A DNA stretch of 63,385 bases, filler included, from Chrysochromulina tobinii (GCA_001275005.1; 5 parts of 5 records of this genome joined end to end with filler, not necessarily neighbours in it), one strand, 5' to 3'. Positions 37,432 to 56,700 are shown, counted from the first letter of the whole stretch. Notes: generated from the letters alone by a model not told the origin. Translations and numbers: made by a program.

Positions 37432-37531
37432 NNNNNNNNNNNNNNNNNNNNNNNNNNNNNNNNNNNNNNNNNNNNTTAATTAATTAANNNNNNNNNNNNN
37501 NNNNNNNNNNNNNNNNNNNNNNNNNNNNNNN
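37432..37531. other. Artificial contig linker
   Basis: 44 N + TTAATTAATTAA + 44 N. Confidence 0.97.
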
Positions 37532-39092: not shown

Positions 39093-39232
39093 CCCCGAGG
39101 CGGGCTCCAAGCAGCGTCGTGGGCGAATCAAGACAAGTCAAGTCAAGTTGTCAGCGATAAGATTATGTCTTGGGAGTCGGTGTTTCGTTATTAACTCCCA
39201 GAGCGTCCCTTCTCCACCTACTTTACCGGCGG

Positions 39233-41836
39233 ATGGCGCCGAAAATGCCGCCCCTCGTCCAAGAGCCCCTCGTCCACCAAGAGCCCTCGGAAGCGTTGGC
39301 TCTGCTCCAACGCTATTTGCTCATAAAGTCCCGTTCCGCGCTGATGGAGTGTACCTCTACGAACTGGTCGGGTCGCAATCTGACCGACGAGCACATGAAG
39401 GGCGTCAGCGGCGTGCTCATGAGCAACACGAAACTGACCATGCTCGACCTCTCCAAAAATCGCATCGGCGACGCGGGCGCACACGCCCTTGAGGTGGCGC
39501 TGGCCGGAGCGGTGGGGCTGCAAACGCTGACGCTGTCGTGTAATCGCATAGGCGATGACGGGGCGTGTGCGATTGCCGCTGCACTGCGAATGGCGATTGC
39601 CATTGGGTGGGCTCCCGGGGCCGCCGGTGGGCTCAAGGAGCTGATGCTTGCGTGGAACCAAATCGGAGATCGTGGCGCCGGCGCGCTTGCAAAGGCACTG
39701 CCGAACAAACTGCGACGACTCGACTTGCGCGCCAACCGCGTGGGCAACGCAGGCGTGGCTGAGCTCTTCCGAGCACTGCCCACCGGTCCGGCCCTCGACG
39801 AGCTCTGCTTACAGGACAATTGGATTTCTTGCGAGGGCGCCAAGGCGATCGCCGCTGCACTGCCCGTGTGTGTGTGGCTGCACGACCTGCAACTCGCGGG
39901 CAACCGAATCGCAGATGTCGGTGCTGCGGCTTTGGCCGAGGCTGTGCGGACGACGCGCTCGCTGCGACGGCTGCGCCTCTCAAGCAATGCCGTTGGCGAA
40001 GACGGTGGCGTGGCCCTCGCCGAGGCGCTCCGGCTCAGCGGCGATGAGGGCGAGGGTGCATTGCAGTCTCTTGAGGTGGCGTACAACCGGCTCGGCGATC
40101 GGACTGCCGCCGCTTTCGCTGTGGCCTTGCGACAGGCGCGACTGCAAGCGCTCGATTTGGAGGGCCACCGCATGAGCCCTGACGCGGTGCAGCACTTGGC
40201 CGTCGCGCTGCTTGGTGCCGCCATCGGGGTCGCGAGTGGTGTTGGGGGCTCGTCCCCGGCTGAGGCCGAGGAGCTCGACAGGGCCTGTGGGGAGGAGGAC
40301 GAGGCGCGCTCGGCGACCGCGGCGGCGCTCGCGGCGGCCCTCGCGGCGGAGGACGTGGCGACCATCCAGCTGACCAACGCAGAAGCGGCCGTTGAGGAGC
40401 TGCACAAGCGCCGTGAGGAGCTCGAAGAGGTCCTTCGTGAGGCCCAGGACCTCGAGTGGGAGCTGCAAGCTGCCAAGGCGCAGGAGGCGGAGCTCAAGCG
40501 GATCGTCGAGCAGGATCAGCAAGCGCTCGACGAGGCACAGAAGCAGGCCGAGAAGGCGAAGAAGTGGAACCTACTCTCGATGGGGACGCAGAAGCAGAAG
40601 GCTCTCCAAGCTCTGAAGGAGCAGATGACGAAACAGGCCGCCGGCGTGGCAAAGGCGGCGGCCGAGAGCCAGCGTGTGACGAGCCTCGGCGGAACGCTTG
40701 AGAAGCAGGCACGCGAGGCCGAGAGGCTCCAGCGCGAGCTCGAGCGAGATACGGCGGCGACGACACGTAGGCTGCGGGAGACTCGCGAAGCACGAGCGCA
40801 GGCAGAGAACGTCCGGCGTGCCGCCGAGGCCGCCGCGACCGAAGCCGCCGCCGCGCACGCCGAGCAAGCGCGCGCACGACCGGCGCCGGCGCCCACGCGG
40901 CCGCCGTGGCTATCGCTTCGGCGGTTGCATGGCATGCGGCTCATGTCGCACGTGCGCGCGCTCGGGGTGATAGGCGAAGACTGGCGGAACGAGCTCGACA
41001 ATGGGGTCCTTCTCGACGAGCTGCGGCGTGCGCGCGAGCTCCTTACCGGCGAGGCCATGCCGCCGTGGTTGCGGAGTGGCGTTCGAAGAAGCACGGAAGC
41101 ACGTACAAATTTGAGTGGATCCCACTTGCCTTTCGCGCTCTCCATGATGGGTGTGGCGGAGCCTCAAGAGCCGAGGGCCACGCAGCCACGCGTGCAAGTC
41201 CAACTCGAGCCGTTGATACTCTTCGCCTCCGACGGCGAGGAGGTCATCATCGACCGCAGGCGGCCAACGAAGCCGCCAGATCCGCCGATAGGGCACCGGT
41301 GGAGGAAGCTGGGTCGGAGAAGGCCGACGAAGGGCGTCGAGCTCTTCAACGAGGCGCTCAGCGAAGCTCTTCGGACGAAGCAGGAGTTCACCCAGAAGGA
41401 GATCGACGAGTTCAGGCTGCCGAATCTCACAGTCGAGAGCTTCATTCAGGTGGGCGATAGGTTTTTTCGTGCTGAAGATGGAGCAACGCCACCGTCGCCG
41501 CCGCCGCCACCGCCACCGCCGAAGCCACCACCACCACCACAGCCGACGCCACCACCACCGCCGCCGCCGCCGCCGCCACCATCGAAGCCATCGCCGCCGC
41601 CGCCGCCGCCTGCAGATGCTCAGATTATGCCTGACCTTGATCCGGAGGCTGTCCGCAGGGCCATTCAGGCTGTCTTCGAGCGGTGGGATCTCGACAGGTC
41701 GGGCCTCTTGTCCATCGACGAGTTCGCCTCGGGCATCACGCGAGAGGCCACGTCGCTCGAGCATCGCGACGACCCCGCTGTGCGTGCCATCGCCGCGGTG
41801 ATGGCGAGAGAGGCAAGAGAGAGGCGAGAGAGGTGA
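39233..41836 (+). CDS. Ribonuclease-inhibitor-like LRR protein with coiled coil, poly-Pro tract and C-terminal EF-hand
   Basis: About ten 28-aa LxxLxLxxNxIGDxGAxALAxAL repeats; E/A/Q-rich coil; DLDRSGLLSIDEF. Confidence 0.88.
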   Translation: MAPKMPPLVQEPLVHQEPSEALALLQRYLLIKSRSALMECTSTNWSGRNLTDEHMKGVSGVLMSNTKLTMLDLSKNRIGDAGAHALEVALAGAVGLQTLTLSCNRIGDDGACAIAAALRMAIAIGWAPGAAGGLKELMLAWNQIGDRGAGALAKALPNKLRRLDLRANRVGNAGVAELFRALPTGPALDELCLQDNWISCEGAKAIAAALPVCVWLHDLQLAGNRIADVGAAALAEAVRTTRSLRRLRLSSNAVGEDGGVALAEALRLSGDEGEGALQSLEVAYNRLGDRTAAAFAVALRQARLQALDLEGHRMSPDAVQHLAVALLGAAIGVASGVGGSSPAEAEELDRACGEEDEARSATAAALAAALAAEDVATIQLTNAEAAVEELHKRREELEEVLREAQDLEWELQAAKAQEAELKRIVEQDQQALDEAQKQAEKAKKWNLLSMGTQKQKALQALKEQMTKQAAGVAKAAAESQRVTSLGGTLEKQAREAERLQRELERDTAATTRRLRETREARAQAENVRRAAEAAATEAAAAHAEQARARPAPAPTRPPWLSLRRLHGMRLMSHVRALGVIGEDWRNELDNGVLLDELRRARELLTGEAMPPWLRSGVRRSTEARTNLSGSHLPFALSMMGVAEPQEPRATQPRVQVQLEPLILFASDGEEVIIDRRRPTKPPDPPIGHRWRKLGRRRPTKGVELFNEALSEALRTKQEFTQKEIDEFRLPNLTVESFIQVGDRFFRAEDGATPPSPPPPPPPPKPPPPPQPTPPPPPPPPPPPSKPSPPPPPPADAQIMPDLDPEAVRRAIQAVFERWDLDRSGLLSIDEFASGITREATSLEHRDDPAVRAIAAVMAREARERRER

Positions 41837-42674
41837 AATCCGCATCCTCCAGCACGCATCTTCCGGTGTGGCTCGTAAGAGTGCGTAGAGCCAGGCTCTG
41901 TGGAGAGGTGAAATCTGCATCCTCCAGCACGCAGCATCCTTCGGTGGCACGGTGGCACGCGTGAGTCGCGGCTCGCGGGGTACAAATGAGCTGGCCCTCC
42001 CTGACTCAGCGCACAGCGGGCGGGTTGTGGTGGGATACGGTAATTGTAAATTGACGTCAATTGTGACTGCGCGCTGTTGCGGCGCTCCGCTGTACAGTCA
42101 CGCCGCTGACCATAGTCCGGTCATAGACCGGATACAGTGATAGTGTTAATAGTGATAGCGTCGCCGTCTGCCTTTCGCTTGACGATGATAGTTCCACAGG
42201 ATGTCCCGCACACTTAATTTAAAGTACCGTTAACGCTATAATACGGCTATACGATAACCCTCCGGCTGCCGTATACGGTATACTAAATTAAGTGCCGGTC
42301 CCGCACACTTAAGGTTTAGCCGGTGCACTCCGTCTCCGCTCGCCTCTCGCGTCTCTGCGACGTAGGTCGTAGCGAGCCCCCTATTCGCTATTCACCGCCA
42401 CCCCTGAGTAACCCTAGTGTGCGGTGAGAAAAAAAATATATCGGCTTCGTAACGACTAACGTCAAACGTGTATACTACAATACAGCTCGTGACAGCGAGG
42501 AACGGGACACTCTCCACTCTGGCAACTGGCACGTAATTATTGTCTATGTCCTCTATCCTCTATCCTCGGCATGCAGCACAGCCCACAGCGAGGGACTGCT
42601 GAAATCAGTACTGATGAAATCAGATGGCGACACAGTGAGACGCGGTTGCCGTGGATGCCGTCACCCCCTGTGCC

Positions 42675-44126
42675 TCACCTGCTTTTCAAGCAAGCTTCAA
42701 TGAGCAGATCAAGCACATCATCAGGAAACTTCATGCTGTATTTGTTCAGCCACAGCAGCAGCAAGACGAATCGCTGTGTGGTATGATTGAACATCAAATG
42801 ATCTTTGCGAGACCAATAGACCATATTCCAGACTTTGATCGTCTGGTCGATCGATCCCGACACGATCTTGGTCCCGTCCGGGGAGAACGCCACCGACATG
42901 ATCCATTTGCTGTGTGCGTTCATCTTCTCGCTCAACAGCTCCAGTTTGCCTGCCAGACAAGCCAACAAGCATCAGTTTTGGCCAAGGAGGGGCGATTTGA
43001 GGGCTGCAGCGCACCCGACTCCCAGACTTTGATCGTCCCGTCGTCCGACCCCGACACAATCTTGGTCCCGTCCGGGGAAAACGCCACTGAGTTGATGCAG
43101 TCGCTGTGGGCGTTCGTCTTCTCGATCAACTGCTCCAGCTTACCTGCCAGACAATCCAGCAGGCGTCAGTTTTGGACAGGAAAGCGCCATTTAAGAGCTC
43201 TGGCGCACCAGACTCCCAGACTTTGATCGTCCCATCAGCCGACCCCGACACAATCTTGGCCCCGTCCGGGGAAAACGCGACCGAGATGATGTCCCCGCTG
43301 TGGGCGTTGGTCTTCTCGCTCAACAGCCCCAGTTTCCCTGCCAGACAAGTCAGCAGGCGTTAGTTTCGGTCAAGGAGGGGTGATTTTGAGGGCTCTGGCG
43401 CACCAGACTCCCAGACTTTGATCGTCCGGTCTTCCGATCCCGAGACAATCTTGGTCCCGTCCGGGGAAAACGCCACCGACCTTATCCATCGGCTGTGGGC
43501 GTCGGTCTTCTCGCTCAACAGCTCCAGTTTTGCTGCCAGACAAGCCAGCAGGCGTCAGTTTTGGCAACGGAGGAGCCATTTGCGTGGCGCACCCGAACCC
43601 CAGACTTTGATCGTCTCGTCGTCCGATCCCGACACAATCTTGGTCCCGTCCGGGGAAAACGCCACCGAGTTGATGTCCCCGCTGTGGGCGTCCATCTTCT
43701 CGATCAACTGCTCCAGCTTGCCTGCCAGACAATCCAACAGGCGTCAGTTTTTGCCAAGGAGGAGTGATTTTGAAGGCTCTGAGGCACACCCGAATCCCAG
43801 ACTTTAATCTTGACCTCGCCTTCCTCCTCATCAAAAGTCTCATCAAATTCTTCCCACGAAGTGACAGCGATGCCGTTGATAGACATAAGTGTGCACCCAT
43901 TCCCATAGGCATCATTAATCGCAGTCTGGTCTTCCTTGGAGGCAACAAAAGTACGTTCTCCGACTGGCTGATCTCTCAATTCCCAGACTTTCATCGTCCC
44001 ATGATCCGATCCCGACACAATCTTCGTGCCATCGGGCGAAAAGACGACCGAGATGATGGCATCGCTGATTGTGTCGGTGTGGGCGTTCGTCTTCTCCGCT
44101 ATACAGTTGATGAGCATCGCGATCAT
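42675..44126 (-). CDS. WD40-repeat protein, copy A (exons 44126-43790, 43721-43593, 43532-43404, 43337-43209, 43143-43015, 42949-~42675)
   Basis: Four internal 129-nt phase-1 exons each encode one [43 protein letters not shown] repeat, separated by homologous 60-68-nt GT-AG introns. Start codon and last exon are uncertain. Confidence 0.85.
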
Positions 44127-44943
44127 CCTGCGGACAAGAGAGAAGAACAGAGGCTCAGGCAGCGTGTGTATTCGGCAGCATGGAGATATGGGACCACAAG
44201 CGACTGCAAGATCGAAGGGCGCTTGAAGGGTCTCGATGCAGACATGCAACAGCCAACAGCGTGCCGCGAGGATGAGGGGAATCGCGTGAGGAGTGTGGCT
44301 CCGAAGCTCATCGCGAACCGGAGAGTCGCATGAGCGGACTCGATCGATTCCGTGTGCGGCGGTGGGCGAAGGCGGAGCGCATGCTGCGAACGATAACGTC
44401 ACCGAGGAGGGACAAGGACGCTGCCTGCCAGATCCGCTGCCGTTCAACACAACGCGCATGCCGACCCCAAAGCACGAGGGCCTCTATCGCTATGGACGGA
44501 GGCATGGCCAACACAGCCTAACACCGTGCCTGAGGGAAAAAAGCGTCTGCCGACAAAAGGGGGATATTCTGCCTCTTCGTCAAGTAAACGCGAACAAATC
44601 TCCACAAACCTTAAAAGGCCCACGTTGCAAAACCCCGAAAGACGTGGGACGCATCATGGCGCTTGTGCGCGTTGCTGCCGGGCTGCCTGGCGTCGTCAGT
44701 CGCGCTCGGGTCGTCCCGTTCGAGCTTTGAGGCGACGTCCGTGGTCGATGCCGACCACGGCGAGAGCGAATCGCGAAGCCGGCGACGCCGAGGCCCGAGT
44801 ACGGCCTGTGAGGTCGCGTTTTGGTCGCATTTCGGTACTTGGACATGCAGAGTGACCTTGAATGGCGTGATTCTCTGTGTTGTATGAGTCCATATAGTCC
44901 CTAGACTCGATCTATGGCCCTCCAGCTATGTGCTGTCTCGCGA
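43020..44943. repeat. 1.9-kb direct repeat, copy 1 (copy 2 at 50460-52383)
   Basis: Sequence is identical at offset 7440 except for one substitution I could see (43121 C vs 50561 A). Confidence 0.92.
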
Positions 44944-47900
44944 AAAAAAAAAAGCCGCCGTACTGGGCATCCTCGGCTCCCTCGCTCGCGGTCCTCTCGC
45001 CTCTACCGGCTCTAACGGCTATGACGACGCGGCGCTGCATGAGCTCGCTCGCCAGCTAGGGATGGCGCCCGGCTCCGCGTCGCAGCTGTTCGAGCCGCTG
45101 CCGCACGCCCGCGACTCGACGGAGGCAGCGAGGGCACGGCGCGCCGCGATGGCACAGATGGCGCACGCGATGGAGGCGCAGGCGGTCGAGGAGCGTCTGC
45201 GCGACCTCGGCCTTCGGGGACTCGATCTCGCGGGGCTACACCCATCCGACCTCCACGCACTCGGGTTGCCGCCTCACCTCGCCACCGGCGCCGGCGCGGC
45301 GGGCCTCGGCGGCGACGGACTCGGCGGGCCCAGCGGCGGCTTCGCGAGTGCCGCCGACGGAGTGGGCGCCTCGGCAGGCGAGCTCTTCGGCATTCCACAG
45401 CGCCACTCGCCGCGTGGGTACGCCTCACGGGTGCCCTACGGCGCACCGGCGGCGGGCGTGGTGGGTGAGAGCATGGAGGAGCCGTTGGGCGAGCTCCACG
45501 TCGCGCTCCACCGCCTCTCCGCGGCTCTCGCAGCTGCTGGCCATGCGGAGAGCCGAACGACCTCACGCTACTCATCGGTGCCTGGATCACTCGCGTCCAG
45601 TCAACTCGTCTCGCCCGCCGGCTCTCCGATGCGGGCTGGCGCGCTCGACCGTTCACCCTACGGCCGGCCGTCACCGTATCGCCAGCCGCCGCGCCATTCA
45701 GCTACCGGCCGCGCCGGCTACGGCGCGACCGACGGCGACAGCTACGGCGACAGCTACGGCGGCAGAGATGGCGGCAGAGATGGCGGCAGCTGTGGCGGCG
45801 GCCGTGGCGGCAGCCGTGGCGGCAGCTTTGGTGGCGTGGCTGCGTGGCATCTCGCACGGCGTGCCAGCGACGCTCCCTATTACGAGCCCAACTCTCGCCC
45901 GCCCTCCTCGCGGCCGGCCTCCTCGCGGCCCGGCTCGTCACGCCCTGAATCGGGAGGCTCCGCGCATTCACATTCACATTCACGTTCACGCCCCGAGTCG
46001 GGAGGCTCCGCGCGCAGCGGCAGCAGCGGCGGCGGCTTCGGCGGCTTCGGCAGTGGCGGCGGATATGATGCCTACAGCGCCGCTGGCTACGCGACGGACA
46101 GCATCATGCGCCCCGGCACCGCCACTGATGCCCAATCCCTTGCGCCGCCGCCCGAGCACGACGAGACGTGGCGCGAGCTGCTGCTCCGCTCAGCCGGCCT
46201 CTTGGCCGAACCGCCGGACGCGCCCGCGCCGATCGCCGTGCGGCAAGTCGGCTACGTCACCGGCTACGAGCGTCGTGCCGAGCGGCCGTTGAGTGGGGCC
46301 CAGCATGCAGGACCTGCAGGGCCCGCCTCCGCACGGGAGGCAGCCTATGGGCGCGGCGACGGCAAGGCGCGCTCACGGCCCGCATCCGCGGGGCGCGAGC
46401 GCCGTGACGAGCGCCCACGCAGTGCCGGCGGCGGCTCCCGCCTCGCTGCTTCCATCGCGGGGGGGCCTGCCCGAGCGCAGAGCGCCCCGCCCCGCCACCC
46501 GTCTTCCCGCGGCTCGTCGCCGCCTCCCGGCGCCATCGGCGCGGATGGCAGCAGTGTGGCCCGTGTGCCCGAGGAGCCGTACTCGGATGTGTACGACGGG
46601 CGCTACGGCGGGCGTTATGACAGCCAGAGCCGGCCAGCGGAGCGCACGCCTTCGGGCTACCGGTCGGTCGTCGAGGAGGAGGCGGAGGGCGGCTGGAGGG
46701 CAGCGGCACGAGAGTGGCAGCCCAAGATGGCTCCGGCGCGCCTCGACCCACGGCTAGAGCGCCCGCCTGCGCCGCATAATGTGCCCGCGCCGCGCTCTCC
46801 AGAGTACGAGCCGTACGACAGTGGCCTACCACCCCCCGGCGGCGGCGCGGGCGCGGCGGCGTCGCGCCGGGCAGAGGCGGCACGGATCGAGGCGGCGTAC
46901 CAGGAGGTGGCACGCGCGGAGGCGGTGCGCGACGCGGTCCGTATGCAGGCGGCCTATGACGAGCTCGCGGTCGCCCGACACGACGCGTCCGCGGCCTCCA
47001 AGTACGAGGCGAGGGTTGTCGGCTTCCTTCCACAGCCCGATCCTCCATCGACCGCCCCCGCCACCGCCACCGGCCCCGGCCCCGCCCCCGCCCGCCGCAG
47101 CGCCTTCGAAGGCGCAGCAGAGCAAGCCACCGCAGAGCATCCCTCGAGGGAGGCCGCCAGCCGCCGCCAAAGCGCTGTGTCGGGCGGCCTGAGCGTGCCG
47201 CCTCCAGTGCGTTTGGCGGTACCTCCAGCTCTTGCCGCCCTGGCGGGGGCTTCGGCCGCCCATGCCGCCGAGGCGCGCGGCCCGAGCTGGAGCGAGCCAG
47301 CACGTGAGCTAACGCGTGAGCTAACACGTGAGCCAGCGCGTGAGTACGAGCCAGCGCCGCCGCCGATGACCTCACGCCAGCCGATCCCTTCACACCTCAC
47401 TTCACGCCAGCCGATCACCTCGGCACACCCAGACCCGTTCCGCGCGCTCGAGCTGCAGGCATGCGACGCGCGCCGCTCGGCCCTCGATGAGGACGTGCGC
47501 CGGCTGCACCGCTCAAACGACAGCGCTGCGGCTGGCGGCGCCGGCGCTGCGTACTCCCTGGGAGCAGCCGCTCGAAGCGGCAGCACGCTCGCCGCCGCGG
47601 CTGAGCCGCCGCCGCCGCGACCGCCCTCGGGCTACGCAGAGTCCGCAGGCCGAGGGATCCCGCCGGCCGTTGGGGGCTACCCGGAGTCCGCAGCCACCAA
47701 CGGCGGCGGTCGCCTCGGTGGGGCGCCGAGCTGGGCGCCCGCGACGGCGCGTTGCGCGGAGGATGCGGCGGCGGTCCGAGCCCGCAAGCATGCATGGGCG
47801 ATGGGTTACGGGGGCGACGCAGTTGGTGCTCGCGGCGGCGCTGCCCCGTCCGGCGCCGCTCGCGACGACGCCTCTCACGCTCGCGACGACGCCTCGTACG

Positions 47901-48661
47901 TGCGCGCCTCTCACGGCGCGTCGCTGAGGAGGCCGACACAGCTCGGAGCGGGCGGCGTCACGAGCGGCGACGCCCTCGGCCGCGCACCGCGCGTGCCCAA
48001 GCCGGCGCTTGCGCGCCCGGCACGGCGCGATCAGATGGACGGGCACGCCCTGTCGGAGCACGCGGCTCGGCAGCAGGCGGCATGGGAGGCTCGGCAGCAG
48101 GAGCTGATGGTCATCGGAAGTAACGGACTGCCTGCCGAGGTGCGTGCTCGGCTCGGCGCGCGCGGGCTTGTGCAAGCTCGCTCGACGCACCCGTCGACAC
48201 GCGCCGAACCGTACGTTTCGCGTCGTGTTGAGCAGTACGCTTCGCGCCGTGTCGAGCAGCACGATTGGCGCCCCGACTCCTCTACCGGTAACGGCTCGTA
48301 CTGCGCGAGCGTGAGCGACGCGGCCATCACGGCCGCCGAGGACATCCGCCGCCGTGGCGTCTACCACAAAGGCTCCACCAAGACGTATCAGCGAGAGCCG
48401 CCGCCCTTGGCTCCGCCCTTGGACCGGAGGCAGCCTGATGGGCGGGCGCGCCAGTATGCGAGCACCCATGAGGCAGAAGGCGGCATGCTCTGGCATGGGC
48501 GGCTCGAGGCCCCCCCCGAGAAACGGCCGAGCGCGGCCATCAAGCAGATGGTCGAGCGCGACAGCCCGGCGCCGCAGCCCGCCAGGGTGATGGACACGAG
48601 CGGGGTGCCACGGGCGGTGTGCTACCCCACGCGCGGCGCGCCCGCGTCCATCTTCCGCTGA
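44930..48661 (+). CDS. Large low-complexity (Ala/Gly/Ser/Pro/Arg-rich) hypothetical protein, 5' end possibly lost at a poly-A junction
   Basis: 1243-codon open frame with coding-like bias and no domain recognised. It begins without a clear ATG at the edge of the 1.9-kb repeat. Confidence 0.6.
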   Translation: MLSREKKKAAVLGILGSLARGPLASTGSNGYDDAALHELARQLGMAPGSASQLFEPLPHARDSTEAARARRAAMAQMAHAMEAQAVEERLRDLGLRGLDLAGLHPSDLHALGLPPHLATGAGAAGLGGDGLGGPSGGFASAADGVGASAGELFGIPQRHSPRGYASRVPYGAPAAGVVGESMEEPLGELHVALHRLSAALAAAGHAESRTTSRYSSVPGSLASSQLVSPAGSPMRAGALDRSPYGRPSPYRQPPRHSATGRAGYGATDGDSYGDSYGGRDGGRDGGSCGGGRGGSRGGSFGGVAAWHLARRASDAPYYEPNSRPPSSRPASSRPGSSRPESGGSAHSHSHSRSRPESGGSARSGSSGGGFGGFGSGGGYDAYSAAGYATDSIMRPGTATDAQSLAPPPEHDETWRELLLRSAGLLAEPPDAPAPIAVRQVGYVTGYERRAERPLSGAQHAGPAGPASAREAAYGRGDGKARSRPASAGRERRDERPRSAGGGSRLAASIAGGPARAQSAPPRHPSSRGSSPPPGAIGADGSSVARVPEEPYSDVYDGRYGGRYDSQSRPAERTPSGYRSVVEEEAEGGWRAAAREWQPKMAPARLDPRLERPPAPHNVPAPRSPEYEPYDSGLPPPGGGAGAAASRRAEAARIEAAYQEVARAEAVRDAVRMQAAYDELAVARHDASAASKYEARVVGFLPQPDPPSTAPATATGPGPAPARRSAFEGAAEQATAEHPSREAASRRQSAVSGGLSVPPPVRLAVPPALAALAGASAAHAAEARGPSWSEPARELTRELTREPAREYEPAPPPMTSRQPIPSHLTSRQPITSAHPDPFRALELQACDARRSALDEDVRRLHRSNDSAAAGGAGAAYSLGAAARSGSTLAAAAEPPPPRPPSGYAESAGRGIPPAVGGYPESAATNGGGRLGGAPSWAPATARCAEDAAAVRARKHAWAMGYGGDAVGARGGAAPSGAARDDASHARDDASYVRASHGASLRRPTQLGAGGVTSGDALGRAPRVPKPALARPARRDQMDGHALSEHAARQQAAWEARQQELMVIGSNGLPAEVRARLGARGLVQARSTHPSTRAEPYVSRRVEQYASRRVEQHDWRPDSSTGNGSYCASVSDAAITAAEDIRRRGVYHKGSTKTYQREPPPLAPPLDRRQPDGRARQYASTHEAEGGMLWHGRLEAPPEKRPSAAIKQMVERDSPAPQPARVMDTSGVPRAVCYPTRGAPASIFR

Positions 48662-49921
48662 TGAGCTCGGGAGGACTCGGAGAGTGGAGGAACGATACGG
48701 TCCAGCAGGGCTCTCAAATCTGCTCCACACACAACTTATAAAATGAAGAGGTCCAAGAGGTGCCAAGAGGGCCAGCCGGTGAGAGAGGAGACTGAAACTC
48801 TGAAGAAGAAAGTGTTGTCCCTGCAATGGCCTCTGGCGTCAAGACGCGCGCGCACATGATACATCTGTTTTCCGGTTTTATACGGGGAGGCACACATCAA
48901 AATGACAAAGTCTGTCAAATGACCGGCTGCAAAGCGGAAACGCGACGCGCGTGCGCGGCGTGGTCGCAGGGCGGGACGTCCCACTGAATCCACTTTCGGG
49001 TATGCGTCGTTTCAAGTCACTATTGTTACACACGACATCATTTCTGTCATCTCACTTCTCAGTTCTCAATCTCACATCACACCGTGTCGCTTGTTGGTCA
49101 ACGCACCCTGAGACGCGAGAGCGAGACCGTGAGACACCACCACCGACACCGCCACGCTTTTATGCCTGGGCGCCGTACCGCCACCCCGCCCTCGCCACGT
49201 GTGCGCTGCCGTTAGCGGGGGCTACGGATACGGTTTAGAGCGGTGGTAGGCCGTGCGCCGTGTTTTTCCTTAACTTACTTTACCGCGCGACCCCGGCGAC
49301 CGGTCCGACACCATTAGAGACACCATCCTTCCGTTTACCTTCCGTTCGCGTAGCAACTTTTCGCAAATCGTCACAGACGTGTAGAGAGAAGAGACTTATA
49401 TACAGCCAAATACGAAATAGCTCTCGGTGTCTCGGAGTATTCGGTACGGCGGCCGGGGCACGTACTTACAGGGTACTTACAGGGTACCACGTCCGTTCAT
49501 AGAGAGTACCGGGAATACTACAGCAAGAGTACAAGGACATGGCGCGAGTACTGCGCGCTGCACCTAGCTGCACCGGCTGCGCCTGGGCCTGCGGCTCGCT
49601 CGTGGTCTCAATTTCCACCAGCTCGTGTCACGATTCCTGAGCTGAACTATTTCGCAACTTCCTCAGGGGGAGTGATGTGTAGGCCGGTCATGCGTGAACA
49701 AAGTCGGCAGGAGTTGGGGGTTGGAGGGTCCAATCCTTGTAATCATCTCGACCTTGATCTCGGTGAGCATGTACCCAGCCGTCTTCATCTCGGGGGACTC
49801 GGCGATTGTGCGCCCAGCCGACTTGGCCTCAAAGCAAGAGATCAAACGTTCACAGCACGCGCCGACCGCCGTGTGGATCAGATCGGATGCGACACACCGT
49901 GCCTCCGTAACCCCACACCTC

Positions 49922-51566
49922 TCACCTTCTTTGCAAGCAAGCTTCGATGAGTAGATCAAGCACATCATCCGGAAACTTCATAGTGTACTTGTTCAGCCAC
50001 AGCAGCAGCAAGACGAGCCGCTGGGTGGTATCCTTGAACATCAAATGATCTTTGCGAGACCACTTGACCATATCCCAGACTTTGATCGTCCCATCAGCCG
50101 ATCCGGACACAATCTTGGTCCCTTCCGGGGAAAACGCCACTGACGAGATCCGTTCGCTGTGGGCGTTCTTCTTCTCGCTAATGAGCTCCAGTTTGGCTGC
50201 GAGAGCCAACAGGCGTCAGTTTTGGCCAAGGAGGGGCGATCTTGAGGGCTCCGGCGCACCTGAATCCCAGACTTTGATAGACTTGTCGTCCGATACCGAC
50301 ACAATCTTGGTCCCGTCCGGGGAAAACGCCACCGACAAGACATAGCTGCTATGCGCGTCCGTCTTCTCGCTCACCAGCTCCAGGCCTACCAGACAAGCCA
50401 GCAGGCGTCAGTTTTGGCCAAGGAGGTGCCATTCATTTGATGGCAAAAGCGCACCTGAATCCCAGACTTTGATCGTCCCGTCGTCCGACCCCGACACAAT
50501 CTTGGTCCCGTCCGGGGAAAACGCCACTGAGTTGATGCAGTCGCTGTGGGCGTTCGTCTTATCGATCAACTGCTCCAGCTTACCTGCCAGACAATCCAGC
50601 AGGCGTCAGTTTTGGACAGGAAAGCGCCATTTAAGAGCTCTGGCGCACCAGACTCCCAGACTTTGATCGTCCCATCAGCCGACCCCGACACAATCTTGGC
50701 CCCGTCCGGGGAAAACGCGACCGAGATGATGTCCCCGCTGTGGGCGTTGGTCTTCTCGCTCAACAGCCCCAGTTTCCCTGCCAGACAAGTCAGCAGGCGT
50801 TAGTTTCGGTCAAGGAGGGGTGATTTTGAGGGCTCTGGCGCACCAGACTCCCAGACTTTGATCGTCCGGTCTTCCGATCCCGAGACAATCTTGGTCCCGT
50901 CCGGGGAAAACGCCACCGACCTTATCCATCGGCTGTGGGCGTCGGTCTTCTCGCTCAACAGCTCCAGTTTTGCTGCCAGACAAGCCAGCAGGCGTCAGTT
51001 TTGGCAACGGAGGAGCCATTTGCGTGGCGCACCCGAACCCCAGACTTTGATCGTCTCGTCGTCCGATCCCGACACAATCTTGGTCCCGTCCGGGGAAAAC
51101 GCCACCGAGTTGATGTCCCCGCTGTGGGCGTCCATCTTCTCGATCAACTGCTCCAGCTTGCCTGCCAGACAATCCAACAGGCGTCAGTTTTTGCCAAGGA
51201 GGAGTGATTTTGAAGGCTCTGAGGCACACCCGAATCCCAGACTTTAATCTTGACCTCGCCTTCCTCCTCATCAAAAGTCTCATCAAATTCTTCCCACGAA
51301 GTGACAGCGATGCCGTTGATAGACATAAGTGTGCACCCATTCCCATAGGCATCATTAATCGCAGTCTGGTCTTCCTTGGAGGCAACAAAAGTACGTTCTC
51401 CGACTGGCTGATCTCTCAATTCCCAGACTTTCATCGTCCCATGATCCGATCCCGACACAATCTTCGTGCCATCGGGCGAAAAGACGACCGAGATGATGGC
51501 ATCGCTGATTGTGTCGGTGTGGGCGTTCGTCTTCTCCGCTATACAGTTGATGAGCATCGCGATCAT
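49922..51566 (-). CDS. WD40-repeat protein, copy B (one extra repeat exon 50385-50260; divergent last exon from 50196)
   Basis: Same exon-intron cassette structure as copy A, with an additional 126-nt exon ([29 protein letters not shown]) and a different final repeat (HSERISS..). Confidence 0.85.
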
Positions 51567-52383
51567 CCTGCGGACAAGAGAGAAGAACAGAGGCTCAGGC
51601 AGCGTGTGTATTCGGCAGCATGGAGATATGGGACCACAAGCGACTGCAAGATCGAAGGGCGCTTGAAGGGTCTCGATGCAGACATGCAACAGCCAACAGC
51701 GTGCCGCGAGGATGAGGGGAATCGCGTGAGGAGTGTGGCTCCGAAGCTCATCGCGAACCGGAGAGTCGCATGAGCGGACTCGATCGATTCCGTGTGCGGC
51801 GGTGGGCGAAGGCGGAGCGCATGCTGCGAACGATAACGTCACCGAGGAGGGACAAGGACGCTGCCTGCCAGATCCGCTGCCGTTCAACACAACGCGCATG
51901 CCGACCCCAAAGCACGAGGGCCTCTATCGCTATGGACGGAGGCATGGCCAACACAGCCTAACACCGTGCCTGAGGGAAAAAAGCGTCTGCCGACAAAAGG
52001 GGGATATTCTGCCTCTTCGTCAAGTAAACGCGAACAAATCTCCACAAACCTTAAAAGGCCCACGTTGCAAAACCCCGAAAGACGTGGGACGCATCATGGC
52101 GCTTGTGCGCGTTGCTGCCGGGCTGCCTGGCGTCGTCAGTCGCGCTCGGGTCGTCCCGTTCGAGCTTTGAGGCGACGTCCGTGGTCGATGCCGACCACGG
52201 CGAGAGCGAATCGCGAAGCCGGCGACGCCGAGGCCCGAGTACGGCCTGTGAGGTCGCGTTTTGGTCGCATTTCGGTACTTGGACATGCAGAGTGACCTTG
52301 AATGGCGTGATTCTCTGTGTTGTATGAGTCCATATAGTCCCTAGACTCGATCTATGGCCCTCCAGCTATGTGCTGTCTCGCGA
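50460..52383. repeat. 1.9-kb direct repeat, copy 2
   Basis: See copy 1. Confidence 0.92.
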
Positions 52384-53794
52384 TCTTTGGAGATGTGCAT
52401 CGAAATCCGACTTCGCCTCGAATATCGACCCGTCGTGAACCATTTGACCCTACAGCTCAAGAATTCGAGCTCCAAAACACATTCTCTCGCCTGTTCTCGG
52501 TAGTGTACCATAGAGTGGTGTGCGATCCTAAGATGAAGAGTGGTTGACGTTATGTATGACGCACATTGCAGTACGGAACCTACATTATGCACACAAGTTG
52601 CCCTGTACGACACACGCGAGTATGCTCTATGCACAGTGCTCCCCTACGCTAGAAGAGTGATGCTCTCCGATCATCAGCCCGGTCGGGATATCTCACGAGG
52701 CGACTCCGGCATGCCGTGAGCCGCCCATGCGACGCTATCTGCGCTGTCCTGGAGCCATCTGCTGTCCTGCGCGTCGTGCGCTGCGGGCGGGGCTGCAGCC
52801 ACATCCGGTTCTGTGACGAGCTGATCGCCGACGCGTTGAGCCCACTGCCCCGAGAATGCGGCGCCTCAGCCCACCAGCTGGCTGCGGCGGATGCTCCGTG
52901 CGCGGCAAGCCGCGCAGATGCCTTCGGGTGCGACACCGTTGCCCCTGTGCTGTTCCCAGATGCCGCAGCACCGGGTCACAATGTGAGTATGTGACATCTG
53001 AGTGGCGACAGTGACTTAATGATGGCTTGATTATCTGTGTTGTACATAACTCATAAGTCCATATAGTCCCCGCCCGCCCCGTCCCCCGCCCGTCCCCCTT
53101 GGCAGTCAGTGGTTCATGTTGGGCCGTAATTTCGAAGATTACACTGATGAGTGCGAGCGGACTAGTACTCGGCCGCCTTAATACGCGGCCGCCTACTCGG
53201 AATCTATCCAAAACGGCGGCTGTGAACTGCGCGCTCTACGGCGCGCACGCGCCCTGACTTTCCGGCTCCGAAGGCCGGCCACCCTCGCAGTATTGCTCGC
53301 TGTGGATACCCCCGCGGCACCTGCCTCTTTTTGGCGCTTCGGGGTGGAATGGCAGGCCACACGAGTGCCGATTAGCGATTTGCGCGCGCGCCTAGGCCGC
53401 GCACCTGTCGAAGTGTCGATATGGCGCTTGGCGGGCAAGGGGCATCGCGGGGTCCTGCCTTCGGACCGGCGCTCGAGCCCGACGCGGCGGAGGCCCGACA
53501 TCGCCGGACGCCTGGGGGCGGGCTGCCGCGCTCGTCCTCGAGAGCCGAGCCCGAGGTGCACGGCGAGGACCCAACACCGCGCAGGTGGGAATCGCGCCGG
53601 CGACGCTGTTCGGTTGAGGCCCACACGCCACAGATGACGAATCTCACACAGAAACCGACCCCTACGCTTCGGACTTCTATCGGACGCGGAGATCGTCTCT
53701 CATTGAAAAGCGGACATGGGGTCACGGTCACTGGTGCGCGAGAAGAGACCCCCCGGGGAGGGGAATGCAGATTGGGGTCGGAGCCGTCGTCTCT

Positions 53795-56700
53795 TCACCG
53801 ATGGATGTCGAGCGCTGGGTACATCTTGCGAGCGCCCTTGCTCTTGGGCACGTCCTCCCGCAAGGGCGGCGCGGTCGGCAGGAGCATCTCGCCCCGTATG
53901 AGCAGCTTGGGCGCCGAGACCACCGGTGCGGCGCTGTGCGGGCACGCATGCGGCATGATCAGGAGCTTGCCGCGCCGCGGCGCCGAGCGCGCAAGCACGT
54001 GGCGTTCCCCGGGGGCCACGCCACCTGATGAGGGATGCACTCAAGCAGTCATCAGAGGCCATCGGAGGTAATCAGAGGTCATCAGAGGGCGCTCTTCGGG
54101 GGCCACGCCACCCGCGGCTGCGAGCTTGGCGTCGCCCGGCTTGGCCTCGAGGAGGAGCGTCTCGCCACCGTACTCGCAGTCGGTCAGGTAGAGCAGGAAG
54201 CTGTGCGTCGTGCGCACCCCCTGGGTATTCACACCCCCTTCAACTTGCCGCGGCTGGTCCGGATGGGTATTCACACCACCCTCGGGTATTAACACCCTCG
54301 GCAGGTCCACATGGGCAGGTAGCGAGCCGCCCGGTGACGGGTAGTGGAGGAATCGCATCAGGGGCAGCGTGCCGTAGCGGCGCGGCGCGGCAGAGCACGC
54401 AGGCTGGCCCTCGTAGAGCGCGCACATCGTCGTGGCATCGTCGTCGATGGCGGGCTTGCGGACTGGCACGCTGGGAGCGCTGGACGGTGCCGGTGCCGGT
54501 GCCGGTGCCGGTGCCGGTGCCGGGGATGGTGATGATGCCGGTGCCGGTGATGGTGATGATGCCGGTGCCGGTGATGGTGATGATGCCGATTTCGGTGATG
54601 CCGATGGTGACATTCCTGCCTGCATGCTCGCCACCCGTACTTGGTACTCCGCGCGGGTGCGACAATCGCTCTCGATGAAGCTCGGCAGGTGCCCGCTACG
54701 GCGCTCGCACTCCCGCGCCTCCTCCTCCGCCGCCCATCGGAGCACTTCGGGGCGACCACCGAGAGTGGCGGCGCCCACGACGACGCTCCAATCCCACGGG
54801 CACCCGTTCCGATGGGCCCACCTGAGCAGGGGCAGGTGCCCCGCCCATGCCGCCGCCTGCCCCACCTCCTCGTTCCAAGGCGCCCCTTCGAGACGAAGCT
54901 GCTGCAGCCGGCCGAGCTCTCCATACCTAATGAGGGAGGCAATCAGATGCCATCAGAGGCCATCAGAGGCAATCAGGGCCGTGAGCCAGCCGAGCTCTCC
55001 ATACCTAATGAGGGAGGCAATCAGATTCAATCAGAGGCAATCAGAGGCAATCAGGGCTGTGAGCCGGCCGAGCTCTCCATACTTGGCAGCGAGTCCGCAC
55101 GGTCGGTAGTCTGGCGGGGGTGGCCGACGGGGCGGGGGGTGCCGATGGCGCGGGCGGCTGCGGGTGCTTCAACTCGAGCGCCGTGTCGAGCGCCGTCCGT
55201 GGCATAAATCGAGCGGCGGCCTTGCCAGCCGCAGCGGCGGCAGGACCCGCGACATCATCACTACTGTCGCCATCATCACCACTGCCGCCATCATCACCAC
55301 TGCCGCCACCATCACCACTGCCGCCGCATCCATGGGCTTGCAGCACGTCATGCTGTACGCCGTCGGCGGCTCGCGCGCCGTCGTCGCTCGCTGCTGCCCG
55401 CTCGGGCATCAGGCCAACGGCCACGAGCGCCGTGTCGAGCGCCGCACAGAGCCAGCCGTCCACGTCCGCATAGTAGCTGCGGTCGATGGGCGACGGCTTG
55501 TCCTTTGGGGCGACGGGCAGCGCGCGCCAGAGCTGCACGATCGCATCGAGGCACGCGGGATGCAGCGCCGTCTCGAGCACGAGCGTTCCCGCGCCGGGGT
55601 GCGGCGCGAGCGAAGCAGGCAGGAGGGTCGTCACCGTGGGCACGTGGCCAGTCGGGACCTCGAGCATCTCGCCATCGCTCGCGCCTGGGCGCCGAGTCAC
55701 CGCCTTATGCGCCAGCAACGCCTTCCGCAGCAGCGGCTGCAACTGGGCAAACGACCGATGCTCCGTCGCCTCGCATGCAGCGTGCAGGCTCGCGGCCAGT
55801 TCCGCGTGCCCCGCCGCCGCCGCGGCCGCTGCCGGTAGCCAGCCGCCGTTGGCCGTGAGGGTGGCGCGCGCTCCAAGGGCCAGCAGCTCGCGCGCGGCCT
55901 CGGCATGCCCATGCTCGGCGGCTAGAAAGAGGGCGGTGCGCCCGTATTCGTCTTGCCCATCCAGCCGAGCGGACCGCTTGCCGATGCATTCAAGGATGAG
56001 CCGCAAGTCCCCACGCGCCGCCGCGGCGCGCAGCCGAGCATCGTCCATCGAGCGCGTCGCATCGCCCGCCTGCAGCGACGCGACGAACTCGGCCCATGCC
56101 GCCGCCGCCGCGCCGTCCGGGCGCGTGATCCGCGCGCACACGCGCGCCACGAGCTCGTCGTGCCGTCGTCGAGCGCAGTGTTGGTCGCTGAGGGCGTCCG
56201 AGCTGCTCACCTGTGGGAAAGAGGGCGGGCGCGCCGTGGTGGGCACTTGCATGCAAGGCAGAGGGCAGAGGGCGTCGAGCTGCTCACCAGAGGCGCATTC
56301 TTGCTCGTCTCTCGGGCCTTGGCCAAAAAGTACGCCTTGCCCGCGCGCACGAGGCCCGGGTTGGGGGCCTGCTTGGCGGCAGGCTTGCTGGCGGCGTCGG
56401 CGCCCTCGAGGAGGGAGCAGCCCACCTGATGAGGGAGGCGATCAGCATGCCATCGGAGATGCAATTAAAGGCCATCCGGAGGCTCGATGCTCGAGGAGCA
56501 TGCAGCCCGCCTCGGCATGCGGCCACTCCTGATGAGGGAGGAAATCAGCATGCAGCCCACCTCGGCATGCGGCCAGTACCAAGCCGCGCGCGTCGCCTCG
56601 GGCGGCGCCGGCATCAGGGGCGGACGCGGCGCTGGCGACGCCGCCGTAGTGGGCGCCCACGACGGCGCTGATGACGACGGCGCTGGTGATGACGCAGTCG

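What the first reader, a model, noticed from the sequence alone, without database searches (positions are those of the whole stretch)
42675..51566. WD40 genes assembled from one-repeat-per-exon cassettes with hypervariable surface positions (candidate diversifying immune or recognition receptor)
Seen: each internal WD40 repeat is one 129-nt (once 126-nt) phase-1/phase-1 exon, and the 60-68-nt introns are homologous (..GGCCAAAACTGACGCCTGCTGGCTTGTCTGGCAG-like), so the exon+intron unit itself is amplified. The scaffold is almost invariant, but residues after AHS (KWIM, DCIN, GDII, RWIR, GDIN, SYVL, ERIS) and around the SxD turn (IDQ, DDG, ADG, EDR, DDE, DDK) vary strongly. Copy A has 6 complete repeats and copy B has 7, with different terminal cassettes. 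Known: fungal HNWD/HET-E receptors have highly similar WD40 repeats that diversify at comparable positions, and Ectocarpus ROCO/NB-ARC genes use one-repeat exons for shuffling. Inference: a modular binding-specificity generator working through unequal recombination, gene conversion or in-frame exon skipping.
Basis: partly seen in the sequence, partly recalled or inferred. Interest (0 to 1): 0.8.

Follow-up and report, generated by a model that had tools for sequence, protein, structure and literature searches.

The report
Hypervariable one-blade-per-exon WD40 gene family
Two small WD40 propeller genes of a Chrysochromulina-like alga belong to a family of at least 20 genes in which every blade is its own 129-base exon and five predicted binding-face residues per blade change faster than silent sites, so the family likely serves as an inherited repertoire of binding proteins, although the apparent sharing of four blades between the two copies is doubtful.

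Summary
The anatomy is real. Two minus-strand genes (375 and 417 aa) have internal exons of 129 nt (one of 126), all phase 1, separated by homologous 60-69-nt GT..AG introns.

However, 1,924 bases (43020-44943 and 50460-52383) are identical in A and B except for one base. An independent assembly of locus A carries different cassettes 5' of cassette c4. The "shared" cassettes are therefore either a misassembly or a very recent replacement.

The finding is stronger at family level:
- 80 related loci fall into 47 clusters, and I count 23 distinct genes in culture-type assemblies.
- The usual gene has seven one-blade exons plus an invariant 49-aa, predicted two-helix tail.
- Among 162 unique cassettes, positions 14, 15, 17, 33 and 35 are hypervariable, giving 152 distinct signatures.
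- Nonsynonymous divergence at those positions is about 2.3 times the synonymous divergence of the scaffold.
- Positions 15, 17 and 33 match the known WD40 top-face hotspots R1-2, R1 and D-1.
- Internal cassettes show no positional orthology, and a few are identical at different positions in different genes.

Best reading: a germline repertoire of variable-face propeller adaptors that evolves by gene conversion plus diversifying selection. This is analogous to the fungal HNWD repeats, but without an NLR domain. Exon skipping and an immune role remain unshown.

The parts
43790..44126 (-). Gene A exon 1 (337 nt): start codon, WD40 blade 1 and an atypical ~60-aa second blade
   Evidence: Translation. 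PF00400 E 7.7e-7 on residues 14-48. A homologous atypical blade is present in P0108.
43593..43721 (-). Gene A cassette c1 (129 nt, phase 1; GDIN/DDE)
   Evidence: PF00400 E 1.1e-12.
43404..43532 (-). Gene A cassette c2 (129 nt; RWIR/EDR)
   Evidence: AG/GT flanks.
43209..43337 (-). Gene A cassette c3 (129 nt; GDII/ADG)
   Evidence: The independent assembly L001 diverges from the window inside this exon, 5' of 43232.
43015..43143 (-). Gene A cassette c4 (129 nt; DCIN/DDG)
   Evidence: Also present in L001.
42675..42949 (-). Gene A last exon (275 nt): last blade (KWIM/IDQ), 49-aa conserved tail and stop codon
   Evidence: 100% match in L001.
42950..43789 (-). Span holding the five gene A introns: 43722-43789 (68 nt), 43533-43592 (60), 43338-43403 (66), 43144-43208 (65) and 42950-43014 (65)
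   Evidence: GT..AG boundaries and lengths. All five match the family intron HMM.
51230..51566 (-). Gene B exon 1 (identical to gene A exon 1)
50455..51161 (-). Gene B cassettes c1-c4: exons 51033-51161, 50844-50972, 50649-50777 and 50455-50583
   Evidence: Identical to A's c1-c4 except for one base, plus the last bases of c4.
50260..50385 (-). Gene B cassette c5 (126 nt; SYVL/DDK), unique to B
49922..50196 (-). Gene B last exon: last blade (ERIS/ADG), tail and stop codon
   Evidence: An RNA contig joint 50196->50260 removes intron 6 exactly (run X13).
50197..51229 (-). Span holding the six gene B introns: 51162-51229, 50973-51032, 50778-50843, 50584-50648, 50386-50454 and 50197-50259 (60-69 nt)
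43020..44943 (.). 1,924-bp block identical to 50460-52383 except at base 43121
   Evidence: Not reproduced in L001 5' of 43232. Block-private unitigs show less than 2x depth.
50460..52383 (.). Second copy of the identical block
42678..42824 (-). Coding sequence of the conserved C-terminal tail of A (the B equivalent is 49925-50071)
   Evidence: 24 invariant columns in 22 paralogues. No Pfam or PDB sequence match. Predicted as two helices in relative P0011.
44127..44730 (-). Family-conserved 5' flank (about 300-600 nt upstream of the ATG; the B equivalent is 51567-52170)
   Evidence: Paralogue homology extends to about -600 and then stops. No homology exists 3' of the stop codon.
49407..49958 (-). 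Gene B 3' UTR plus the end of the CDS, covered by RNA-library contigs
   Evidence: Contigs of 519 and 545 nt with 1 and 0 mismatches in runs X13 (polyA library) and X15.

Best explanation
These are two members of a lineage-specific family of small stand-alone WD40 propeller proteins, each blade on its own 129-nt phase-1 exon, that likely acts as a germline repertoire of binding adaptors.

Shown:
- The family has an almost invariant scaffold.
- Five positions per blade are hypervariable: 14, 15, 17, 33 and 35.
- Those positions diverge faster than synonymous, four-fold-degenerate or intron sites.
- The 49-aa C-terminal tail is invariant.
- Complete genes most often have seven blades.
- Internal cassettes are not orthologous by position, and some share identical tracts across genes and positions.

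Inferred:
- The hypervariable residues line the top (ligand-binding) face. Positions 15, 17 and 33 are in register with the hotspots R1-2, R1 and D-1.
- Short gene-conversion or unequal-exchange events spread and reshuffle cassettes, keeping scaffold and introns alike.
- Diversifying selection keeps the binding-face residues different.
- The constant tail would dock every member onto one common partner.

What the ligands are (viral, self/non-self or endogenous) is unknown.
For: Gene structure:
- Gene models and intron phases.
- The same structure holds across the family. 127 of 197 129-nt hits are internal AG..GT exons, and the 169 introns are mostly 65-66 nt.
- All 24 complete spliced models keep an open frame ending in the tail.
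- Repeat hits per gene: 7 in 17 of 24, 6 in 4, 3 in 2 and 8 in 1.

Hypervariable sites:
- 162 unique cassettes give entropy 2.3-3.8 bits at positions 14, 15, 17, 33 and 35. Most other positions are at least 0.85 conserved; positions 1, 3, 4, 16 and 42 are 0.65-0.77 conserved.
- There are 152 distinct five-residue signatures.
- All-pairs Nei-Gojobori estimates: hypervariable pN 0.577; scaffold pN 0.064 and pS 0.256.
- Held-out design: hypervariable pN 0.483 against pS 0.214, ratio 2.28, range 1.84-2.75 over 20 splits.
- Register with R1-2, R1 and D-1, which are G-beta positions 16, 18 and 34: passages of PMC3419727.
- The spacing is the same as the four selected codons 7, 9, 25 and 27 of the Podospora HNWD repeats: PMC1805685, section 9.

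Cassette exchange:
- Identity between positions i and j (2-6) is 0.87-0.90 whether or not i equals j. The nearest neighbour lies in another gene at another position for 75 of 105 cassettes.
- Collinear minus non-collinear identity is -0.001 +/- 0.009 over 136 gene pairs.
- L029 exon 3 equals L058 exon 5. L062 exons 3 and 4 are identical. The shared tracts run into flanking introns and exons.
- Intron identity is 0.835, above four-fold-site identity of 0.773, while 3' flanks cannot be aligned.

Structure and expression:
- The AlphaFold2 model of relative P0011 gives a propeller with pLDDT above 90 and a two-helix tail with pLDDT about 70. The best structural matches are 7-bladed WD40 propellers.
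- An exact splice joint and 3' UTR contigs occur in RNA libraries, and the spliced contigs L052 and L068 exist.
Against: - No ligand, partner or phenotype is known.
- The tail matches no family. Pfam at E up to 10 gives only DUF7703 (E 0.07). The PDB profile search has a best E of 0.046, a colicin immunity protein. The protein atlas returned no usable hit.
- The top-face location rests on sequence register with published hotspots. It was not measured on model coordinates.
- The lack of positional orthology could also come from one ancient burst of amplification. Only 11 cassette pairs reach 96% identity, and 4 of those are the doubtful A/B block.
- Synonymous sites in a GC-rich genome may be constrained, which would inflate pN/pS.
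- The loci come from several assemblies and possibly several species.
- Blade number is mostly fixed at seven, unlike known diversifying WD arrays.
Confidence: 0.6

Rival explanations
1. The family would be substrate receptors of a cullin-RING ubiquitin ligase. The variable propeller face would pick the substrate, and the constant tail would be a degenerate F-box- or SOCS-box-like adaptor motif that docks on Skp1, Elongin C or a similar protein. This refines the best explanation rather than excluding it.
For: - Divergent tails from the exhaustive profile search keep [LF]P[DE][DE][VIL]LD[LM][LI]I preceded by a hydrophobic helix (P0131, P0136, P0138). This resembles the start of the F-box consensus as I recall it. 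That is a recalled motif, not a test.
- The tail is predicted as two helices.
- Pairing a WD40 propeller with an adaptor box is the architecture of F-box/WD and WSB proteins (recalled knowledge).
Against: - No F-box, PRANC or SOCS_box hit at E up to 10 in 2 window tails and 8 divergent tails.
- No such PDB chain appears in the profile search.
- The motif lies about 12 residues from the C-terminus, so the second and third F-box helices are absent.
- The domain order is the reverse of F-box/WD proteins.
Confidence: 0.15
2. These are ordinary young paralogues of a highly repetitive WD40 protein. The scaffold is conserved by purifying selection, and the five positions are simply unconstrained loop residues with no recognition repertoire behind them.
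For: - Highly repetitive WD40 proteins with conserved scaffolds and diverse hotspot sites are widespread in prokaryotes, protists and fungi (PMC5587647 passages).
- Scaffold pN/pS is 0.25.
- Blade number is mostly the canonical seven.
Against: - Neutral sites cannot diverge faster than silent ones. Hypervariable pN of 0.48-0.58 exceeds scaffold pS (0.21-0.26), four-fold-site divergence (0.227) and intron divergence (0.165).
- There are 152 signatures among 162 cassettes. Only 1 of 21 genes repeats a signature internally.
- All 24 complete genes are intact.
Confidence: 0.12
3. Diversity would be generated within the individual by in-frame exon skipping or alternative cassette choice. One gene would then yield propellers with different blade sets.
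For: - All internal exons are symmetric (phase 1-1) and 129 nt, so any skip keeps the frame.
- The RNA-like contig L052 joins exons 6 and 7 of gene L056 exactly but has only three repeats.
- RNA contig joints that skip 255 nt, the size of one cassette plus two introns, were seen in runs X13 and X15.
Against: - L052's first exon is not present in L056 (best match 70.7%), so L052 probably comes from another gene.
- Three-repeat genes exist in genomic DNA (L034/L035 and L055).
- The 255-nt joints have sides of only 20-28 nt and are offset 6 nt from the splice sites with non-canonical ends. With dozens of paralogues they are likely cross-mapping.
- A propeller with fewer blades would not close.
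Confidence: 0.06
4. The two-copy arrangement in the window is partly an assembly artefact. Only one locus carries the exon 1-c4 block, and the assembler copied it onto the other locus through the near-identical c4 cassette.
For: - 1,924 bp are identical except for one base.
- L001 agrees with the window over 4.5 kb of unique flank and then carries other cassettes 5' of 43232.
- Block-private unitigs have 0.8-1.9 times single-copy depth in four DNA runs.
Against: - L001 is a short-read contig that ends 574 nt further on, and it could be the chimeric one.
- Unitig depth is a weak copy-number proxy.
- A 5,065-nt contig links the sequence just beyond the A-side block boundary to B's last exon.
- A very recent gene conversion would give the same picture.
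Confidence: 0.55

Closest known systems
Podospora anserina HNWD/NWD genes (het-e, het-d, het-r): WD-repeat domains of fungal NOD-like receptors
   Same: - Repeats of about 42 residues are nearly identical within and between genes.
- Paired hypervariable codons flank a conserved residue: codons 7/9 and 25/27 there, 15/17 and 33/35 here, with the same 16-residue spacing.
- Those codons show dN above dS, and many distinct residue combinations exist.
- Repeats are exchanged within and between loci.

Source: PMC1805685, abstract and sections 7-9.
   Different: - The fungal repeats follow a NACHT NTPase and an effector domain, lie in one exon, and vary widely in number (2-15 per locus among isolates).
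- Here there is no NTPase or effector domain.
- Here each repeat has its own exon with a conserved intron, blade number is mostly seven, and a unique C-terminal tail is present.
Ectocarpus LRR-ROCO and NB-ARC-TPR genes (one repeat per exon, exon shuffling)
   Same: Each repeat is one exon of fixed length that keeps the frame. The repeats show diversifying selection, and the organism is an alga. Source: PMC3341825, abstract and passages.
   Different: - The repeats there are 72-nt LRR or TPR exons, not WD40.
- They are attached to ROC-COR GTPase or NB-ARC domains.
- Inactivated and reverse-strand cassettes lie in their introns. None were found here: 431 of 431 locus hits and 13 of 13 window hits lie on the gene strand.
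- Repeat number varies in Ectocarpus.
Highly repetitive (HR) WD40 proteins of prokaryotes, protists and fungi (for example PDB 2ymu and 5yzv, and the WRAP-T designer propellers)
   Same: - Internal repeat identity is at least 0.7. Here the mean is 0.78 over 26 genes.
- The scaffold is conserved while hotspot sites are diverse (PMC5587647 passages).
- These structures are the best Foldseek matches of the model.
   Different: Most HR WD40 proteins are long multidomain STAND or kinase proteins encoded without introns. This family is a dispersed set of short single-propeller genes with a private tail.
F-box/WD40 and WD40-SOCS-box (WSB) substrate receptors
   Same: A WD40 propeller is joined to a short helical adaptor module. 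The tail carries an LPxE-like motif (recalled consensus).
   Different: No Pfam F-box, PRANC or SOCS_box match was found. The tail is shorter, and the order is reversed relative to F-box/WD proteins.

Membership tests
WD40 repeat / beta-propeller (Pfam PF00400) | Each unit matches the WD40 repeat model above the gathering score | tested here: met
   Cassette c1 scores 48.3 bits and the last exons 44.5-44.6 bits, against a cut-off of 27.
WD40 repeat / beta-propeller (Pfam PF00400) | Folds as a closed propeller | tested here: met
   AlphaFold2 model of relative P0011: pLDDT above 90 over the blades. Foldseek E 1e-22 to 7-bladed WD40 structures. The window's own spliced proteins could not be folded.
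Highly repetitive WD40 (Hu et al. 2017) | Internal repeat identity of at least 0.7 | tested here: met
   A 0.79 and B 0.74. The family mean is 0.78 over 26 genes, with a minimum of 0.61.
Fungal HNWD/NWD NOD-like receptors | NACHT NTPase domain N-terminal to the WD repeats | tested here: not met
   The start codon leads straight into blade 1. Pfam finds only WD40-type families on exon 1. 24 spliced family models start the same way.
Fungal HNWD/NWD NOD-like receptors | Four hypervariable, positively selected codons per repeat on a near-invariant scaffold | tested here: met
   The spacing equals that in PMC1805685.
Fungal HNWD/NWD NOD-like receptors | Repeats exchanged within and between loci (concerted evolution) | tested here: inconclusive
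   There is no positional orthology and a few identical tracts lie at different positions. A species-level tree test was not possible, and an ancient burst is not excluded.
Fungal HNWD/NWD NOD-like receptors | Extensive repeat-number polymorphism | tested here: not met
   17 of 24 complete genes have 7 repeat hits. The others have 6, 3 or 8. No strain series is available.
Ectocarpus-type exon-per-repeat receptors (ROCO, NB-ARC-TPR) | One repeat per exon of constant length with symmetric phase | tested here: met
   129-nt phase-1 exons.
Ectocarpus-type exon-per-repeat receptors (ROCO, NB-ARC-TPR) | ROC-COR GTPase or NB-ARC signalling domain | tested here: not met
   None is present in the gene models.
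F-box / PRANC / SOCS-box adaptors | Match to the Pfam F-box, PRANC or SOCS_box model | tested here: not met
   No such hit at E up to 10 for 2 window tails and 8 divergent tails.
Introner-like mobile introns (reported elsewhere in this genome, e1-2577349) | The same intron sequence inserted in unrelated genes | tested here: not met
   The family intron HMM gives 364 hits. None lies outside WD40 gene spans in the window or in the 80 loci.

The most novel reading that the evidence does not exclude
A haptophyte alga carries an NLR-independent, germline-encoded recognition repertoire. It consists of dozens of seven-bladed propellers whose top faces are hypervariable. Their one-blade exons, together with introns kept more alike than silent sites, serve as built-in recombination substrates for moving blades between genes. 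All members are plugged into one effector pathway through a private C-terminal tail. This would be a third, independent invention of cassette-based receptor diversification, beside the fungal HNWD repeats and the brown-algal LRR exons, possibly aimed at the giant viruses that infect these algae.
Probability: 0.25. Interest if true: 0.85.

Novelty: new variant of a known kind. Interest (0 to 1): 0.66.

Why it matters
Nothing is known about how haptophytes recognise viruses, bacteria or their own kind. These algae are major bloom-forming plankton and hosts of giant viruses.

This family gives concrete candidates:
- At least 20 intact, transcribed genes.
- An invariant scaffold and tail.
- 152 different binding-face signatures under diversifying selection.

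It also offers a clean natural test of whether exon-intron modularity promotes cassette exchange. The introns here are more conserved than four-fold-degenerate sites, while the 3' flanks cannot be aligned at all.

For annotation, the one named public model found for this family is fused to a neighbouring enzyme gene and named after it (P0049). The family is therefore invisible in that public annotation.

The case is also a caution. Near-identical cassettes make assemblies of such loci unreliable.

Tried and rejected
- **Whole genome.** None is held, so no genome-wide census was possible.
- **Tail identity.**
  - Pfam at E up to 10 gave only DUF7703 (E 0.07).
  - The PDB profile search had a best E of 0.046, to a colicin E7 immunity protein, which I read as chance.
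  - The protein atlas gave no usable hit.
  - A word-index search with the P0011 tail returned only P0011 itself and was uninformative.
- **Exhaustive profile search with the tail.** There were 19 hits at E up to 0.001. Of the 12 I fetched and read, 10 carry the tail directly after a WD40 repeat, P0130 and P0127 carry it without a recognisable repeat, and P0137 looks spurious.
- **Viral contigs.** Eight loci carry generic WD40 repeats only, and none has the tail.
- **Rfam on the whole window.** No match.
- **Intron RNA folding.** Five introns gave z-scores from -1.35 to +1.32, so there is no special structure.
- **Introner hypothesis.** The family intron is not found outside WD40 genes, and a look-up by sequence found nothing.
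- **RNA cover of exon 1.** Next to none at 43804-44104 and 51329-51600 in the four RNA runs. This is not evidence of absence.
- **Apparent exon-skipping joints and A-last-exon-to-B-c4 joints.** Their sides are too short and paralogues too many, so I rejected them as evidence.
- **Nearest-neighbour pN/pS.** Pairs were chosen on the same sites that were then measured, which biases the result. I replaced it with the held-out design.
- **Megablast tract search.** It returned nothing, so I replaced it with an ungapped extension script.
- **Literature.**
  - Chrysochromulina + WD40 returned 6 papers.
  - Haptophyte + WD40 + gene family expansion returned 3 papers.
  - By title and start of abstract, none describes this family.
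  - The search was badly framed, requiring only two of five terms, and says nothing.
- **Supplements.** The supplementary files of the Podospora and Ectocarpus papers were not opened.

Full report
**Observation**

The region holds two genes on the minus strand.
- Splice-site pattern search and translation give gene A: ATG at 44126, stop at 42675, exons of 337, 129, 129, 129, 129 and 275 nt, 375 aa.
- They give gene B: ATG at 51566, stop at 49922, exons of 337, 129 x4, 126 and 275 nt, 417 aa.
- Every internal exon starts one base into a codon.
- The introns are 60-69 nt and read GTGCGC..AAAACTGACGCC..CTGGCAG.
- Each cassette is a WD40 repeat (PF00400, E about 1e-12).
As assembled, A therefore has seven blades and B has eight.
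- No further cassettes occur in the window.

**The two copies are not independent**

43020-44943 and 50460-52383 are identical except at base 43121. This block covers exon 1, cassettes c1-c4 and 817 bp of upstream sequence.

Locus L001 comes from another assembly. It matches the window from 38678 to 43193 at all but two sites, so it is the same locus. 5' of 43232 it carries different cassettes (SKHIM/YDK, then SNGIN) where the window has c3 and c2.

In four DNA runs, unitigs private to the block have about 0.8-1.9 times the depth of neighbouring single-copy contigs rather than twice. This is a weak proxy.

The block is either a misassembly through the near-identical c4 cassette or a very recent replacement. 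I put about 55% on the former.

**Organism and family**

The last exon (one blade plus a 49-aa tail) finds full-coverage relatives only in two places:
- Chrysochromulina tobinii (P0049, where the gene is fused to a UDP-GlcNAc diphosphorylase model) and C. parva (P0011).
- Metagenome ORFs that read through the introns.

A pattern scan of metagenome contigs found 139 relatives, of which 80 were kept. They fall into 47 clusters at 98.5% identity over the last exon plus 3' flank. By my hand grouping of contig-name prefixes, 23 clusters, counting window genes A and B, come from culture-type assemblies.

An HMM of the 129-nt exon shows the same architecture everywhere:
- Exons of 129 nt with AG/GT flanks and introns of mostly 65-66 nt.
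- All 24 complete spliced models keep an open frame that ends in the tail.
- Repeat hits per complete gene: 7 in 17 genes, 6 in 4, 3 in 2 and 8 in 1.
- Paralogue homology covers about 300-600 nt upstream of the ATG and stops at the stop codon.
- Each of the 80 fetched loci holds a single gene.

**Hypervariable sites**

Among 162 unique cassettes, positions 14, 15, 17, 33 and 35 have 13-19 residue types and entropy of 2.3-3.8 bits. Most other positions are 0.85-1.0 conserved; positions 1, 3, 4, 16 and 42 are 0.65-0.77 conserved. There are 152 distinct five-residue signatures, and only 1 of 21 genes repeats a signature internally.

| Measure | Value |
|---|---|
| Hypervariable pN, all pairs (Nei-Gojobori) | 0.577 |
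| Scaffold pN, all pairs | 0.064 |
| Scaffold pS, all pairs | 0.256 |
| Hypervariable pN, held-out design | 0.483 |
| Scaffold pS, held-out design | 0.214 |
| Ratio, held-out design (20 splits) | 2.28 (range 1.84-2.75) |
| Four-fold-site divergence | 0.227 |
| Intron divergence | 0.165 |

A nearest-neighbour design gave higher ratios, but it chose pairs on the same sites it then measured and is biased. The held-out design picks pairs on half of the scaffold codons and measures on the other half.

Divergence at the hypervariable codons also exceeds four-fold-site and intron divergence. Relaxed constraint alone cannot give this. Diversifying selection is the simplest reading; targeted mutation is a less likely alternative.

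**Where the sites lie**

With H12, D34 and W40 as tetrad landmarks, positions 15, 17 and 33 are in register with R1-2, R1 and D-1. These are the residues generally used for top-face binding in solved WD40 complexes (G-beta positions 16, 18 and 34; passages of PMC3419727).

The pairs 15/17 and 33/35 flank conserved residues with the same spacing as the positively selected codons 7/9 and 25/27 of the Podospora HNWD repeats (PMC1805685, section 9).

This is an inference from sequence register. The tools return no model coordinates.

**Cassette exchange**

- For 18 seven-exon genes, scaffold identity between position i of one gene and position j of another is 0.87-0.90 for all i, j in 2-6. Only exon 1 is clearly position-specific (0.89 against 0.77), and the last exon weakly so.
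- The nearest neighbour is in another gene at another position for 75 of 105 cassettes.
- Over 136 gene pairs, collinear minus non-collinear identity is -0.001 +/- 0.009.
- Eleven cassette pairs reach 96% identity or more. Four of them are the A/B block. The others include L029 exon 3 = L058 exon 5, L029 exon 4 ~ L058 exon 3, and the tandem L062 exons 3 = 4.
- The shared tracts run through the flanking intron into the next exon, roughly 150-300 nt. This looks like gene conversion rather than exchange at intron breakpoints.
- Introns are more alike (0.835) than four-fold sites (0.773), while 3' flanks cannot be aligned. This points to homogenisation of the unit or to constraint on the introns.
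- The intron type is private to the family. None of 364 HMM hits lies outside WD40 genes. It has no notable RNA fold and no Rfam match.

An ancient burst of amplification is not excluded as the reason for the missing positional signal.

**The tail**

The tail reads [41 protein letters not shown] and has 24 invariant columns in 22 paralogues.
- It matches no Pfam family and no PDB sequence.
- An exhaustive profile search of 1.84 billion representative proteins gave only 19 hits at E up to 0.001. Of the 12 I fetched, 10 are short fragments with the tail directly after a WD40 repeat. P0130 and P0127 carry the tail without a recognisable repeat, and P0137 looks spurious.
- In the AlphaFold2 model of P0011 it forms two helices (residues 301-318 and 322-334, pLDDT about 70) after a confident propeller.
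- Foldseek returns 7-bladed WD40 propellers: the WRAP-T designer proteins, 5yzv, 2ymu, WDR5 and RACK1.
- Divergent tails keep an LPDE(V/I/L)LD-like motif that reminds me of the first F-box helix. That is a recalled resemblance and failed the only available test.

**Expression**

- RNA-library contigs cover B's 3' UTR and the end of its coding sequence (49407-49958) with 0-1 mismatches.
- One contig removes intron 6 of B exactly (50196->50260).
- Contigs L052 and L068 are spliced at the predicted junctions.
- Exon skipping is not shown (see the tried-and-rejected field).

**Surroundings**

- Between A and B lies a 1,243-codon open frame for an Ala/Gly/Arg/Pro-rich product with no Pfam match.
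- Nearby ORFs encode LRR_6 and ankyrin repeats.
- The high-copy sequence next to the block is listed in the noticed-in-passing field.

**Verdict**

- The anatomy is confirmed.
- The A/B comparison is unsafe.
- The family-level evidence supports a germline repertoire of variable-face propellers that evolves by diversifying selection and cassette exchange.
- It works like the fungal HNWD repeat domain and shares the exon modularity of the Ectocarpus receptors. It is a member of neither family, because it has no NACHT, NB-ARC or ROC domain.
- Function and ligands remain inferred.

Noticed in passing
window 44930-48661 (+): A 1,243-codon open frame lies between the two WD40 genes. It encodes an Ala/Gly/Arg/Pro-rich, repeat-laden product with no Pfam match. 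It is covered by low-depth RNA-library contigs. All four DNA runs show a rearranged join around 47734-47895 with 40 other letters, which suggests a difference in repeat length from the window.
   Followed up: partly
window 44729-44943 = 52169-52383, and 52363-52700: Summed contig depth is in the thousands, against about 40-60 for single-copy sequence. Many contigs diverge at 44795/52235. A high-copy element therefore abuts the upstream end of the duplicated block.
   Followed up: no
window 24910-25009, 37432-37531, 57103-57202, 59876-59975: There are four pairs of 44-base N runs, each pair separated by 12 bases. They look like masked stretches rather than assembly gaps.
   Followed up: no
window 39170-41833 (+), 35794-37272 (-), 55044-56252 (-): Other repeat-protein ORFs lie near the WD40 genes: LRR_6 (E 1.7e-31) and two ankyrin-repeat ORFs. 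None carries the WD40 family's tail.
   Followed up: partly
P0049 (C. tobinii KOO20820.1); loci L034/L035: The public model fuses a three-repeat family member to the neighbouring UDP-N-acetylglucosamine diphosphorylase and names it after the enzyme. The spliced L034 product appears, by eye, to match the first 199 residues of P0049.
   Followed up: partly
L034/L035, L055, L052: Intact genes or transcripts exist with only three WD40 repeats plus the tail. That is too few to close a propeller alone. They could be remnants or could work as oligomers.
   Followed up: no
L081-L088 (viral contigs, several giant-virus bins): Giant-virus contigs encode AFSPDG-type WD40 repeats that are 37-61% identical to the cassette, without the tail.
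   Followed up: no
P0011 residues 1-27: The N-terminus of the C. parva model (..LPDNLDLLSECLKQRR) resembles the family's C-terminal tail motif and is predicted helical. This may be a model that merged the end of an upstream gene, or a real second copy of the motif.
   Followed up: no
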